A stretch of DNA of 64,000 nt from Escherichia coli (GTDB lineage Bacteria > Pseudomonadota > Gammaproteobacteria > Enterobacterales > Enterobacteriaceae), in the NCBI RefSeq assembly GCF_050920415.1, contig NZ_CP169309.1; one strand, given 5' to 3'. The notes beneath the pieces were generated by a model. That model ran no database searches. It worked only from the letters and a program-made list of their open reading frames with translations, and was not told where the DNA came from. Shown piece by piece: positions 3,033-7,685 of this stretch. Both the position numbers and the translations under genes were made by a program. Position 1 is the first letter of the stretch. Every line of letters begins with the position of its first letter.

Positions 3033-4517
3033 ATGGGTTCCACCTCGTCATTATATGCAGCCATTGATCTCGGTTCGAATAGTTTTCATATGCTGGTTGT
3101 GCGCGAGGTGGCTGGAAGCATCCAGACGCTGACGCGAATTAAACGCAAAGTGCGTCTGGCTGCTGGCCTGAACAGCGAAAATGCCCTGTCTAATGAAGCA
3201 ATGGAGCGCGGTTGGCAATGTTTGCGCCTGTTTGCTGAACGTCTGCAAGATATCCCTCCCTCGCAAATTCGCGTTGTCGCCACGGCGACATTACGCCTTG
3301 CCGTCAATGCCGGTGATTTTATTGCCAAAGCGCAGGAAATCCTCGGTTGTCCGGTACAAGTGATCAGCGGTGAAGAAGAAGCCCGCCTGATTTATCAGGG
3401 TGTTGCTCACACCACTGGCGGTGCCGATCAGCGCCTGGTGGTGGATATCGGCGGTGCCAGTACTGAACTGGTAACCGGTACTGGCGCACAAACCACCTCG
3501 TTGTTCAGCCTGTCGATGGGCTGCGTCACCTGGCTGGAACGCTATTTTGCCGATCGTAATCTGGGGCAGGAAAATTTTGATGCCGCAGAAAAAGCGGCAC
3601 GCGAAGTGTTACGTCCGGTTGCCGATGAATTGCGGTATCACGGCTGGAAAGTGTGCGTTGGTGCTTCCGGCACCGTGCAGGCCTTACAAGAAATCATGAT
3701 GGCACAGGGGATGGATGAACGGATTACCCTGGAAAAGTTGCAGCAACTGAAACAACGCGCCATTCATTGTGGTCGACTGGAGGAACTGGAGATCGACGGA
3801 CTGACGCTGGAACGTGCGTTAGTGTTCCCGAGTGGTCTGGCGATCCTGATAGCCATTTTTACCGAACTGAATATTCAGTGTATGACCCTGGCTGGCGGTG
3901 CACTGCGTGAAGGCCTGGTCTACGGCATGTTGCATCTGGCCGTCGAGCAGGATATTCGCAGCCGTACGCTGCGTAATATTCAACGCCGCTTTATGATCGA
4001 TATTGATCAGGCTCAGCGAGTAGCCAAAGTTGCGGCTAACTTCTTCGATCAGGTGGAAAACGAATGGCATCTTGAAGCGATTAGCCGTGATTTGCTCATC
4101 AGCGCCTGTCAGCTTCATGAAATCGGTCTGAGCGTTGATTTCAAACAAGCGCCGCAACATGCTGCTTATCTGGTACGTAATCTGGATCTTCCCGGTTTTA
4201 CGCCTGCACAGAAAAAATTACTGGCGACGCTACTACTCAACCAGACGAACCCAATAGATCTCTCCTCGTTGCATCAGCAAAATGCCGTACCGCCGCGCGT
4301 CGCGGAACAACTCTGCCGTTTACTACGCCTGGCCATCATTTTTGCCAGCCGTCGCCGTGACGATCTCGTGCCAGAGATGACATTAAAGGCCAACCATGAA
4401 CTGTTGACCTTGACGCTTCCGCAAGGTTGGCTAACCCAACATCCGCTGGGTAAAGAGATTATTGATCAGGAAAGCCAGTGGCAAAGCTATGTTCACTGGC
4501 CGTTGGAAGTGCATTAA
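3033..4517 (+). CDS. gppA: Guanosine pentaphosphate phosphohydrolase / exopolyphosphatase family
   Basis: ORF 3024..4517; the protein from the ATG at 3033 begins [22 protein letters not shown] (Ppx/GppA fold). Start may be 3024 or 3033. Confidence 0.9.
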
Positions 4518-6586: not shown

Positions 6587-6802
6587 AGGTGTATTGCTCA
6601 ATCTTCGAACGGGGGGAGGATTGTAGCAGAATCGCATTTGAATGTGACCGAGTGAAAACCGCTAACCGGATGGCTGCGGATGTTTAAATCAGAGAGGGAA
6701 GGCCGAAACCGGAGTTCATCATGAATCCATTAGACTTAGAAAATATCGGGTCGTAACGTTGTGTTATTACTTTTTCAGAGTTTACTAAGGAGAGGTTTAC
6801 TC

Positions 6803-7252
6803 GTGGCGATTAATTTCAGCCCCAAGGTTGGTGAAATACTGGAATGCAACTTTGGTAACTATCCTGTTAGCCAGAATGGACAGTTCAGCACGACGTATTA
6901 CGATGGCCGCATTCCACCTGAGATGATAAAAAATAGGTTGGTTGTCGTGCTCAACGGAAAAATTAATGGCAACGCATGTATCGTCGTTCCATTATCAACC
7001 ACTCGCGACCATGACAAGTTAAATCGTGGAATGCATGTTGAAATAGCCAGTAATGTTATCAATGACCTGCAATTCTTTGATCAGCAGATACGTTGGGCTA
7101 AAGCCGACCTGGTACAACAAGTCAGTCGAAACCGATTAAACAGAGCAAGGACTTATCGGGGGTATCTTAATCAATGTTTGCCACATGAGTTGGTTGCAGA
7201 CATACAGAGGGCAGTCATCAAGTCAATCAATGCCATATCGCTCATAAATTGA
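6803..7252 (+). CDS. yifN: PemK/MazF-like (toxin-fold) family protein, YifN-like; no adjacent antitoxin ORF
   Basis: ORF 6761..7252; AAGGAG at 6787..6792 precedes a GTG at 6803 (VAINFSPKVGEILECNF...). The KNRLVVVLNGK...ACIVVPLSTT segment is reminiscent of PemK/MazF family proteins (from memory, not an alignment). Start is uncertain (6761 or 6803). Confidence 0.6.
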   Translation: MAINFSPKVGEILECNFGNYPVSQNGQFSTTYYDGRIPPEMIKNRLVVVLNGKINGNACIVVPLSTTRDHDKLNRGMHVEIASNVINDLQFFDQQIRWAKADLVQQVSRNRLNRARTYRGYLNQCLPHELVADIQRAVIKSINAISLIN

Positions 7253-7379
7253 CAATAAAATCACCATCCCCGATAATGACTCTGTAGCCCATAGAGGCCC
7301 TAAGTTTTCTCCCCTTGAGGGACCTGCGAAGCCCGGATTTTCCGGGCTTTTGCCATATATGTCCCCCCTCCCTGACTGA

Positions 7380-7685
<306 letters not shown>

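What the first reader, a model, noticed from the sequence alone, without database searches (positions are those of the whole stretch)
6761..7252. Orphan PemK/MazF-like toxin-fold ORF between rep and ppiC with no partner antitoxin
A 149 to 163-aa ORF with PemK/MazF-like features has a good RBS but no adjacent small antitoxin-like ORF on either side; the only upstream ORF is an 11-codon peptide. From memory the equivalent K-12 locus (yifN) is annotated as a pseudogene, whereas the frame here is open. It could be a solitary toxin remnant or a domesticated RNA-binding protein.
Basis: partly seen in the sequence, partly recalled or inferred. Interest (0 to 1): 0.45.

Follow-up and report, generated by a model that had tools for sequence, protein, structure and literature searches.

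The report
MazF-like yifN has an RNA partner
The "orphan" MazF-like toxin gene yifN of E. coli is intact and under selection here, and although it has no protein antitoxin it is always followed by a conserved small RNA gene, which suggests an undescribed protein-RNA toxin-antitoxin-like module.

Summary
ORF 6761-7252 (+) exists. Its conserved start is GTG 6803 (149 aa). It matches Pfam PemK_toxin (E 1.5e-10) and its predicted structure matches MazF structures. The residues aligned with MazF E24, R29 and T52 are invariant across the family. K-12 carries a 1-bp deletion at the position of window T7012. No antitoxin protein gene lies nearby.

The "orphan remnant" reading is only partly right. The gene is under strong purifying selection (dN/dS 0-0.07 between deep E. 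coli alleles). It sits on a low-GC islet of about 750 bp that is present in 74% of complete E. coli genomes.

It is also not partnerless. A sigma70-type promoter whose -35 box overlaps the yifN stop codon drives a 72-nt RNA (7283-7354). This RNA has two short hairpins and a long terminator stem, and a published northern blot detected it in K-12 as a 79-nt species.

A covariance model finds this RNA beside every YifN-clade gene examined: gamma- and betaproteobacterial chromosomes, pCAR1-type and E. coli plasmids. The stems show compensatory changes, and RNA and protein diverge together (rho 0.85). It is usually downstream on the same strand, sometimes convergent or upstream. Searching by RNA alone recovered yifN in 16 of 16 cases.

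The most likely reading is a type III-like protein-RNA module. This is inferred, not shown.

The parts
6631..7384 (.). Low-GC islet of about 750 bp that carries the whole module, inserted between rep and ppiC. Boundaries are approximate.
   Evidence: GC is 42-46% against 51-57% in the flanks. In 26% of complete E. coli genomes rep and ppiC are separated by only 86 nt and the segment is absent.
6722..6757 (+). 11-codon upstream ORF (MNPLDLENIGS). Probably not a partner.
   Evidence: It is present. Its start is GTG in K-12. Superficieibacter keeps the same length and frame, but 7 of 10 residues differ. It is absent from other genera.
6787..6796 (+). Shine-Dalgarno region TAAGGAGAGG. AGGAG lies 9 nt before GTG 6803.
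   Evidence: Read directly from the sequence. An SD-like purine run sits at the same position in the homologues.
6803..7252 (+). yifN coding sequence, 149 aa, a MazF/PemK-fold protein. An in-frame upstream GTG at 6761 would give 163 aa. Codons for E40 (6920-6922), R45 (6935-6937) and S65 (6995-6997) align with MazF E24, R29 and T52. T7012 is the base missing in K-12.
   Evidence: Ribo-RET detected both the annotated start site and an upstream in-frame start site at yifN (10.1101/520783).
7249..7277 (+). Sigma70-type promoter of the small RNA: TTGACA, 17 nt, GATAAT (11 of 12 consensus positions). The -35 hexamer contains the yifN TGA stop (7250-7252).
   Evidence: TTGA[CAT] overlaps the stop codon in 15 of 24 homologous loci, and the RNA 5' end lies 30-31 nt after the stop in 12 of those 15.
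7283..7354 (+). Partner small RNA (ecr3777 in K-12). It has hairpin H1 (7287-7298, GCC-CAUAGA-GGC), a U-rich linker, hairpin H2 (7310-7322, UCC(C)-CUUGA-GGG(A)), and a long terminator stem (7326-7353, GCGAAGCCCGG / CCGGGCUUUUGC).
   Evidence: The only covariance-model hit in the 64-kb window, 79.6 bits. Fold z-score is -2.5. A 79-nt RNA was verified by northern blot in K-12 (PMC4681348). The RNA is identical between deep E. coli alleles and differs from Superficieibacter only by two 1-nt indels, one in the U-rich linker and one in the terminator loop.

Best explanation
yifN and the small RNA just downstream form one inherited two-part module, carried here on a 750-bp acquired islet. YifN is a MazF-fold, probably dimeric, sequence-specific endoribonuclease that keeps the catalytic Glu/Arg/Ser(Thr) set. 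It has no protein antitoxin. [quoted passage not shown] The RNA is made in excess from a near-consensus promoter that overlaps the yifN stop codon. It is also present as the 3' end of the yifN mRNA. It offers two (in some relatives three) similar hairpin units of about 25 nt, which could bind the YifN dimer and block or occupy its RNA groove, and it may itself be cut by YifN. Loss of the element, or a block of host transcription such as phage infection or plasmid loss, would let the RNA decay and free the nuclease. What is shown: the gene is intact and under selection; the fold and the catalytic residues; the absence of a protein partner; the existence, expression and structure of the RNA; its strict co-occurrence and co-divergence with YifN. 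What is inferred: toxicity, nuclease activity, direct RNA-protein binding, and any addiction or defence role.
For: Protein. Pfam PemK_toxin matches. The AlphaFold model has pLDDT 80.5. Its 50 best Foldseek PDB matches are all MazF-family toxins (MazF, YdcE, MoxT), probability 1.0, TM-score 0.62-0.79 normalised by target length. R45 aligns with MazF R29, S65 with T52 and E40 with E24, and all three are invariant in 37 family members. dN/dS is 0-0.07 between deep E. coli alleles.

No protein partner. No neighbouring ORF family is shared beyond one Pseudomonas element. Upstream gaps are 150-280 nt in Serratia, Photorhabdus and Xenorhabdus. Upstream DNA is not conserved between genera.

RNA. A promoter is predicted at 7249-7277, the region folds into hairpins plus a terminator, and a 79-nt RNA was detected by northern blot (PMC4681348). 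In E. coli the RNA and yifN each occur in 4015 of 5426 genomes. Covariance model R1 finds the RNA beside yifN in all 30+ YifN-clade loci, including loci not used to build it: an E. coli IncX1/F plasmid, pCAR1, Rahnella, Roseateles and Rubrivivax. Of the paired cells, 95.3% form standard pairs, 9 of 15 pairs show compensatory changes, and 0 of 500 shuffles reach this. The RNA is convergent in Shewanella and upstream on the opposite strand in Herbaspirillum and Massilia, so it is its own transcription unit. A search that started from the RNA alone found a yifN homologue directly upstream in 16 of 16 true hits. Pairwise protein and RNA identities correlate with rho 0.85, Mantel test 0/2000, and the RNA (68% mean identity) is more conserved than the protein (53%). 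The RNA has no substitution between E. coli alleles whose synonymous divergence is 0.15-0.17. Tandem hairpin units are explicit in relatives: 2 x 18 nt in Vibrio, 2 x 15 nt in Glaesserella, 3 x 19 nt in Roseateles.

Toxin-antitoxin-like population pattern. yifN was inactivated several times independently while the RNA stayed intact: the K-12 deletion, an IS1 insertion, and other frameshifts. The module occurs on 134 plasmid records, including plasmids of 6-7 kb.
Against: No experiment shows that YifN is toxic, is a nuclease, or binds this RNA. The layout differs from every known type III system: the RNA is downstream with its own promoter, and in E. coli the two units are too degenerate for the repeat tools to detect. 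No pseudoknot was found. PADLOC and NCBIfam models do not recognise the protein. Strict co-inheritance would also be expected if the RNA were a substrate or cofactor rather than an inhibitor. Helices H1 and H2 are only 3-4 bp and almost invariant, so their covariation support is thin; most of the compensatory changes are in the terminator stem.
Confidence: 0.5

Rival explanations
1. YifN is not a toxin but a dedicated binding or processing protein for this small RNA. The two would form a ribonucleoprotein with another job, for example a regulator carried by mobile elements or a phage sensor, and the RNA would be its substrate or cofactor rather than its inhibitor.
For: The same co-occurrence, co-divergence and repeated-hairpin evidence applies. 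Short relatives sit next to housekeeping genes such as lipA and gatCA/ligA, which is unusual for addiction modules. About two thirds of the E. coli genomes that carry the locus keep an intact gene, without any known protein antidote.
Against: The full MazF catalytic set is invariant. The gene was inactivated repeatedly and independently while the RNA was retained. The module lies on small and conjugative plasmids and on a minimal islet, which is the usual pattern for toxin-antitoxin modules.
Confidence: 0.22
2. The RNA controls yifN by base pairing with its mRNA (type I-like or classical sRNA control of translation or stability), not by binding the protein.
For: The 5' half of H2 (UCUCCCC) is anti-Shine-Dalgarno-like and could pair with the AAGGAGAGG ribosome-binding site of yifN (read by eye). 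The RNA has a U-rich stretch followed by a terminator, as Hfq-dependent sRNAs do.
Against: Duplex energies between the RNA and the yifN initiation region are no better than for shuffled RNAs (z near 0 in 19 of 20 species). Cognate pairs are no better than non-cognate pairs (-23.2 against -22.6 kcal/mol). The C-rich tract is already paired within H2. Sequence conservation is concentrated in the hairpin loops and the GAGG motifs.
Confidence: 0.12
3. yifN is a truly solitary MazF-type toxin. It would be kept harmless by low expression or by an antidote encoded elsewhere (MazE or ChpS cross-reaction, or a host factor, as MrpC serves Myxococcus MazF-mx). The downstream RNA would be an unrelated sRNA or merely a terminator.
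For: No adjacent antitoxin ORF exists. A solitary MazF with a remote protein antidote has a precedent in Myxococcus (cited in PMC2701414; the identity of the antidote, MrpC, is from my own knowledge).
Against: It does not explain why the RNA accompanies the gene across gamma- and betaproteobacteria and plasmids. It does not explain why the RNA keeps its own promoter, changes strand yet stays adjacent, and diverges in step with the protein. Hosts as different as Pseudomonas, Vibrio and Herbaspirillum would each need a compatible remote antidote.
Confidence: 0.08
4. The ORF in this strain is a decaying pseudogene, or an annotation artefact without function.
For: K-12, BL21 and HS carry a frameshift. 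About 26% of genomes lack the locus.
Against: All seven E. coli copies translated here (the window plus six other strains) have an open frame, and PGAP annotates six of them as intact. There are 13-15 synonymous against 0-4 non-synonymous changes. Twelve residues are invariant at 39-86% identity to the window protein.
Confidence: 0.02

Closest known systems
MazF / PemK (Kid) / ChpBK type II toxins (Pfam PF02452)
   Same: The Pfam family matches. The predicted fold is the same. The residues aligned with MazF E24, R29 and T52 are conserved. It is small and presumably dimeric, and occurs on plasmids and chromosomes.
   Different: There is no MazE/PemI-type protein antitoxin gene, in E. coli or in any homologous locus. 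There is an insertion of about 16 residues in the beta1-beta2 loop (residues about 18-38, low pLDDT). A conserved small RNA gene is adjacent instead. No PDB entry matches by sequence.
Type III toxin-antitoxin systems ToxIN, CptIN and TenpIN (PMC3401426)
   Same: An endoribonuclease-type protein toxin is paired with a structured non-coding RNA built from short tandem units. Both occur on plasmids, in phage-like elements and on chromosomes. It is established knowledge that ToxN has a Kid/MazF-like fold.
   Different: The toxin is a true PemK/MazF family member, not ToxN, CptN or TenpN: Pfam gives only PF02452, and no ToxN or AbiQ structure is among the top 50 fold matches. The RNA lies downstream, not upstream. 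It has its own promoter overlapping the stop codon, instead of a shared promoter with an intervening terminator. It has only 2-3 degenerate hairpin units rather than 2-6 near-perfect repeats of 34-45 nt. No pseudoknot was detected.
AvcID (RNA antitoxin AvcI with deaminase toxin AvcD; PMC10511110)
   Same: It is a precedent for a protein toxin held in check by a single, non-repetitive small RNA, with activation when transcription stops (abstract seen).
   Different: The toxin chemistry (a deoxycytidylate deaminase), the RNA and the gene arrangement are all unrelated.
Solitary MazF-mx of Myxococcus xanthus
   Same: A MazF homologue without an adjacent antitoxin gene (PMC2701414).
   Different: From my own knowledge, its antidote is the remotely encoded protein MrpC. 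No partner RNA is known for it. The YifN family always carries its RNA alongside.
sRNA ecr3777 of E. coli K-12 (ppiC-yifO intergenic region, 79 nt; PMC4681348 and Conway 2014)
   Same: It is the same RNA as window 7283-7354: same strand, position and size.
   Different: It has been reported only as an anonymous transcript. In the literature I could search, no function and no link to yifN have been proposed. It is not in Rfam 15.

Membership tests
PemK/MazF toxin family (PF02452) | Significant match to the family profile | tested here: met
   E = 1.5e-10, 41.7 bits, model positions 14-108 of 109. PGAP gives the protein this family name.
PemK/MazF toxin family (PF02452) | MazF/Kid beta-barrel fold with a C-terminal helix | tested here: met
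   AlphaFold2 model with pLDDT 80.5 and pTM 0.74. Foldseek against the PDB gives MazF-mt1, YdcE, S. aureus MazF and MoxT, E 6e-6 to 7e-4, TM-score normalised to the target 0.62-0.79. This rests on a predicted model, not a solved structure.
PemK/MazF toxin family (PF02452) | Catalytic Arg (MazF R29) and Thr/Ser (T52), plus E24 | tested here: met
   R45, S65 and E40 align to these residues (MAFFT; hhalign, E 1.5e-4, probability only 51%). They are invariant in 37 homologues.
PemK/MazF toxin family (PF02452) | Endoribonuclease activity and growth inhibition | not testable with these tools
   No experiment on YifN turned up in five literature searches.
Type II toxin-antitoxin system | Adjacent, co-transcribed protein antitoxin gene | tested here: not met
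   The window has no small ORF partner. No ORF family is conserved next to the gene in 33 loci. Upstream gaps are long. The 11-codon uORF is not conserved.
Type III toxin-antitoxin system | Protein toxin accompanied by a cognate non-coding RNA | tested here: met
   The RNA lies next to yifN in all YifN-clade loci. The RNA-first search gave 16 of 16. Protein and RNA co-diverge, rho 0.85. This establishes a cognate association, not antitoxin function.
Type III toxin-antitoxin system | The RNA is an array of short tandem repeats | tested here: inconclusive
   Exact or near-exact units of 15-19 nt spaced 24-27 nt apart occur in Vibrio, Glaesserella and Roseateles. In E. coli there are two similar hairpins about 24 nt apart, but no repeat was detected by either tool.
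Type III toxin-antitoxin system | The RNA lies upstream of the toxin gene in one operon, separated from it by a terminator | tested here: not met
   The RNA is downstream with its own promoter. It is on the opposite strand in three loci.
Type III toxin-antitoxin system | The toxin belongs to the ToxN, CptN or TenpN sequence families | tested here: not met
   Pfam returns PemK_toxin as its only significant match, and the best fold matches are all MazF.
Type III toxin-antitoxin system | The RNA binds and inhibits the toxin and is processed by it | not testable with these tools
   This needs binding, cleavage and rescue assays.
Type I toxin-antitoxin system | The RNA is complementary to the toxin mRNA, and the toxin is a small hydrophobic peptide | tested here: not met
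   No pairing above shuffled or non-cognate controls. The toxin candidate is a soluble 149-aa MazF-fold protein.

The most novel reading that the evidence does not exclude
The YifN clade and its short PEMxK[KR]R relatives would be a large, unrecognised class of protein-RNA toxin-antitoxin modules. Each would pair a genuine MazF/PemK nuclease with a downstream, separately promoted RNA made of 2-3 hairpin units that neutralises the nuclease directly. This would be a new family and a new genetic layout for type III-like systems. It is present in three quarters of E. coli, on IncP-7/IncP-9, IncX/F and small Pasteurellaceae plasmids, in phage-like elements, and beside housekeeping genes in other bacteria (two of the MAG loci are labelled Alphaproteobacteria and one Planctomycetaceae).
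Probability: 0.45. Interest if true: 0.85.

Novelty: new variant of a known kind. Interest (0 to 1): 0.72.

Why it matters
MazF/PemK toxins are the textbook case of type II systems, in which the antitoxin is a protein. Databases label YifN "type II toxin" or, in K-12, "pseudogene".

If its antidote is an RNA, several things follow.
- One toxin superfamily would use both protein and RNA antitoxins.
- "Orphan toxin" calls made by ORF-only pipelines would need re-examination.
- An anonymous E. coli sRNA would gain a function.
- Common plasmid backbones (pCAR1-type plasmids, plasmids of porcine ETEC) would gain a stability or defence module that nobody has scored.

The question can be tested directly in E. 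coli, because natural intact, frameshifted and empty-site strains all exist.

Tried and rejected
1. Protein partner. ORFs of at least 35 aa within 1.2 kb of yifN in 33 loci were clustered. Only neighbours within the Pseudomonas plasmid/ICE-type backbone (at most 5 of 33 loci) recur. Closely abutting upstream ORFs in a few GC-rich or plasmid loci are either a plasmid Rep C-terminus, a wHTH protein, or low-complexity frames.

2. The 11-codon uORF as a micro-antitoxin. It is not conserved as a peptide and is absent outside Escherichia and Superficieibacter.

3. An antisense ORF inside yifN. The open antisense stretches vary from 50 to 131 codons and track GC content, with no consistent frame.

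4. The 163-aa isoform. The GTG at 6761 is not conserved, although Ribo-RET reports a signal at an upstream in-frame start site in laboratory strains.

5. Known RNA families. Rfam 15 gives nothing for the window region or for ten related loci.

6. Known defence or annotation models. PADLOC and NCBIfam give no hit. PHROGs gives only a family of unknown function.

7. Sequence searches of the PDB with the single protein and with the family profile gave no significant hit.

8. Base pairing of the RNA with the yifN ribosome-binding site gave no signal.

9. Tandem Repeats Finder on the RNA found nothing. The seed-based repeat finder found units only in distant relatives.

10. Pattern scans of viral and metagenome contigs mostly returned chance matches. 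65 of 81 loci were discarded after covariance-model screening.

11. Strain UTAK-14, which shows no annotated gene upstream of ppiC, was not pursued.
Full report
OBSERVATION. The ORF reported at 6761-7252 (+) exists: 163 aa from a GTG. An in-frame GTG at 6803, preceded by TAAGGAGAGG (6787-6796), gives 149 aa. The window is E. coli chromosome in the order gppA-rep-yifN-ppiC-ilvC-ilvY. An identical sequence in strain MFDS1022581 is annotated from the 6803 start as WP_000996698.1, "type II toxin-antitoxin system PemK/MazF family toxin". In K-12 the same gene is flagged as frameshifted; the lesion is loss of the base that corresponds to window T7012, in codon 70. Pfam PemK_toxin matches with E = 1.5e-10. 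The only upstream ORF is the 11-codon 6722-6757.

LOCUS AND POPULATION. yifN lies on a low-GC segment: 42-46% against 51-57% in the flanks. Of 5426 complete E. coli genomes, 4015-4018 carry it. In the rest (for example strains 536 and PMV-1), rep and ppiC are 86 nt apart and about 730-750 bp are simply absent. It is therefore a presence/absence islet of roughly 6631-7384. In an even sample of 60 carrier genomes, 41 have a full-length 450-nt gene, 18 share the K-12 one-base deletion (including HS and BL21), and one has an IS1 insertion. Six copies of full 450-nt length from other strains were fetched and five of them re-annotated; all were annotated as intact and all translate without a stop.

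THE GENE IS FUNCTIONAL, NOT A REMNANT. Between this allele and the other deep allele group there are 13-15 synonymous and 0-4 non-synonymous differences (dS 0.15-0.17, dN/dS 0-0.07). One strain differs at 13 sites and encodes the identical protein. Homologues of 140-170 aa occur in Superficieibacter, Pantoea, Serratia, Photorhabdus, Xenorhabdus, Pseudomonas, Aeromonas, Shewanella, Cupriavidus, Roseateles and Herbaspirillum. JGI names them "YifN (PemK superfamily)". In an alignment of 37 members at 39-86% identity to the window protein, C15, G18, P39, E40, K43, R45, V62, P63, S65, R111, L112 and Q135 are invariant.

FOLD AND ACTIVE SITE. An AlphaFold2 model built on that alignment has pLDDT 80.5 and pTM 0.74, and is poorly ordered only at residues 1-3 and 33-41. 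Its 50 best Foldseek matches in the PDB are all MazF-family toxins (M. tuberculosis MazF-mt1/-mt3/-mt6/-mt9, B. subtilis YdcE/MazF, S. aureus MazF, MoxT), with probability 1.0 and target-normalised TM-score 0.62-0.79. Sequence-only PDB searches found nothing significant. That gives R45 = R29, S65 = T52 and E40 = E24. The extra length is mostly an insertion of about 16 residues in the beta1-beta2 loop. From established work on MazF, R29 and T52 are the catalytic pair and E24A abolishes toxicity, so YifN looks catalytically competent. This is an inference.

NO PROTEIN PARTNER. I collected 33 loci: 35 loci from one genome per species in GTDB, of which 28 were used, four loci from assemblies that encode identical proteins, and the window itself. 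I then clustered every ORF of at least 35 aa within 1.2 kb of yifN. No family recurs outside a single Pseudomonas mobile element. In Serratia, Photorhabdus and Xenorhabdus the nearest upstream ORF is 150-280 nt away or on the other strand. Upstream DNA is alignable only between E. coli and Superficieibacter, and the conserved start codon is the one at 6803. The 11-codon uORF keeps its frame in Superficieibacter but not its sequence.

THE MISSED PARTNER: A SMALL RNA GENE. The consensus scan found a near-perfect sigma70 promoter at 7249-7277 (TTGACA, 17 nt, GATAAT). Its -35 box contains the yifN TGA stop. The expected transcript starts near 7283-7285. It folds into short hairpins followed by a GC-rich stem and a U-run (z = -2.5). 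A published RNA-seq and northern study of K-12 lists exactly this RNA: "ecr3777", ppiC-yifO intergenic region, same strand, MG1655 3957925-3958004, 79 nt, also seen by Conway et al. 2014 (PMC4681348). Between E. coli alleles whose synonymous sites differ by 15-17%, the RNA has no substitution. Between E. coli and Superficieibacter (protein 86% identical) it differs only by two single-base indels, one in the U-rich linker and one in the terminator loop, and the promoter hexamers are identical. In E. coli the RNA and yifN are each found in 4015 genomes, and the RNA is complete in every one.

THE RNA FOLLOWS THE PROTEIN EVERYWHERE. A blastn search of plasmids with the RNA region hit Pseudomonas IncP-type plasmids (pCAR1, pND6-1 and others) at 81% identity over precisely the RNA. 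In pCAR1 the match lies 62 nt downstream of a YifN homologue that is 60% identical. Reading the 170 nt after each homologue showed the same element in almost every locus. A covariance model built from 21 sequences (A7, R1) found the following.
- It gave one hit in the whole 64-kb window (7283-7354, 79.6 bits).
- It gave a hit beside yifN in every YifN-clade locus, with E from 1e-21 to 1e-4. This includes loci not in the seed: an E. coli IncX1/IncF plasmid, Rahnella, further Photorhabdus, R. chitinivorans and Rubrivivax.
- It gave no significant hit in the Glaesserella locus and only a marginal one in the Vibrio locus (13 bits, E = 0.5).

In Shewanella the RNA is convergent with yifN. In Herbaspirillum Sphag64 (two copies) and Massilia it lies upstream on the opposite strand. 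It is therefore a separate transcription unit, not just a 3' UTR or a terminator.

On the model-based alignment, 95.3% of cells are paired, 9 of 15 pairs show compensatory changes, and no shuffle out of 500 reaches these values. Most of this signal comes from the terminator stem; H1 and H2 are only 3-4 bp and nearly invariant.

TTGA[CAT] overlaps the stop codon in 15 of 24 loci, and in 12 of those 15 the RNA 5' end lies 30-31 nt after the stop. Pairwise protein and RNA identities correlate (Spearman 0.85, Mantel 0/2000), and the RNA (68% mean identity) is more conserved than the protein (53%).

As a reverse test, I scanned metagenomes for a 17-nt RNA motif and screened the 81 returned loci with the model. 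All 16 true hits had yifN directly upstream. Several carried new, independent frameshifts in yifN while the RNA was intact.

ARCHITECTURE OF THE RNA. The order is: 5' GUAGCCC; hairpin H1 (GCC-CAUAGA-GGC); a U-rich linker; hairpin H2 ((U)CCC-CUUGA-GGG(A)); CCUGC; then a 10-12 bp stem GCRAAGCCCRG...CYGGGCUUYUGC. H1 and H2 resemble each other (CCC-YUNGA-GG) and start about 24 nt apart. In relatives the repeat is explicit:
- Vibrio: 2 x 18 nt at 24-nt spacing, 100% identical.
- Glaesserella plasmid p1702: 2 x 15 nt at 26-nt spacing.
- Roseateles chitinivorans: 3 x 19 nt at 27-nt spacing.

In E. coli the units are too degenerate for the repeat tools. The short PEMxK[KR]R relatives (120-142 aa) come from MAG and metagenome contigs (two labelled Alphaproteobacteria, one Planctomycetaceae; others unassigned) and sit beside lipA, gatCA/ligA and similar genes. 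By eye, they carry an analogous element: a promoter at the stop codon followed by hairpin-CUUNAAGAC-hairpin. None of these RNAs matches any Rfam 15 family.

HOW IT MOST LIKELY WORKS. The data establish a co-inherited protein-RNA pair. The mechanism is inferred. I favour direct neutralisation of a MazF-type nuclease by the RNA (type III-like, confidence about 0.5), for five reasons.
1. The catalytic residues are kept and no protein antidote exists.
2. The RNA is built from 2-3 similar hairpin units, which suits a two-fold symmetric dimer and recalls repeat-based type III antitoxins.
3. Conservation is concentrated in the loops and the GAGG motifs rather than in a stretch that could pair with the mRNA, and no pairing signal with the yifN initiation region exists.
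4. The toxin gene is repeatedly inactivated while the RNA is never lost.
5. The module sits on small and conjugative plasmids (134 PLSDB records), in Vibrio phage-like elements, and in a PHROG of unknown function.

The alternatives are listed with the rival explanations: a non-toxic ribonucleoprotein or RNA-processing pair, base-pairing control, a truly solitary toxin, or a pseudogene.

COMPARISON WITH KNOWN SYSTEMS. By sequence, fold and active site, YifN is a member of the PemK/MazF family. The locus is not a type II system, because the defining protein antitoxin was looked for and is absent. It works most like a type III system but fails two defining layout features (upstream repeats; shared promoter with an internal terminator), and its toxin is not ToxN, CptN or TenpN (PMC3401426). 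AvcID shows that single-sRNA antitoxins exist (PMC10511110). MazF-mx shows that solitary MazF genes exist (PMC2701414). In the searchable literature I found no paper linking yifN or PemK-type toxins to an RNA partner. That library omits most subscription journals, so prior description cannot be excluded.

VERDICT. The ORF itself is ordinary and already annotated. The interest lies in its conserved RNA partner, which turns an "orphan toxin or pseudogene" into a candidate new variant of protein-RNA toxin-antitoxin module that is widespread and easy to test. Interest 0.72.

Noticed in passing
window 7355-7385 (compare L002 3755-3850): This allele lacks a 46-nt segment that K-12 and O157 carry between the sRNA terminator and ppiC. 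The segment is bracketed by CTGACAATT direct repeats, which suggests a slippage deletion that may alter the ppiC promoter region.
   Followed up: partly
window 6722-6757: The 11-codon uORF upstream of yifN keeps its length and frame in Superficieibacter although 7 of 10 residues differ, and it starts with GTG in K-12. It may be a leader ORF or chance.
   Followed up: partly
L040-L045, L059, L062 (short PemK-like relatives): Homologues of 120-142 aa sit beside housekeeping genes (lipA, gatCA/ligA). They also show a promoter at or overlapping their stop codon, followed by a hairpin-CUUNAAGAC-hairpin element. This is possibly a sister RNA family. It was seen by eye and by single-sequence folds only.
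   Followed up: partly
L035 1982-2220 and L033 2136-2215: In Herbaspirillum Sphag64 and Massilia the partner RNA (two copies and one copy) lies upstream of yifN on the opposite strand, next to a conserved 176-191 aa winged-helix gene. The arrangement differs from all other loci.
   Followed up: no
L015 3489-3501 (Chimaeribacter californicus): The yifN ORF there has lost the usual stop codon and reads 13 nt into the RNA gene (166 aa). rep lies downstream in convergent orientation, unlike in E. coli.
   Followed up: no
L046 1-3528 (E. coli UTAK-14): The 3.5 kb upstream of ppiC has no annotated feature, only five ORFs of at least 80 aa (one of them ppiC itself), and no rep gene. This could be a rearrangement or an unannotated insertion.
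   Followed up: no
L087, L132, L134, L055 (E. coli-like metagenome contigs and strain TUM14664): At least four further independent inactivations of yifN (an N-terminal deletion, two different frameshifts, an IS1 insertion), each with the downstream RNA fully intact.
   Followed up: partly
L003-L006, L021, L063 (pCAR1-type Pseudomonas elements): The module sits in a long run of small hypothetical genes, together with an N6-DNA methylase, a GNAT acetyltransferase and a metallophosphatase. This resembles the leading or anti-defence regions of conjugative elements.
   Followed up: no
plasmid records NZ_OY843411.1 / NZ_OY757140.1 (93,760 bp) and NZ_CP081708.1 (57,912 bp): Records labelled as E. coli plasmids carry chromosomal-type yifN-sRNA (97-98% identity) or a ppiC copy (89.5%). 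This could be chromosomal DNA captured on plasmids or mislabelled contigs.
   Followed up: no
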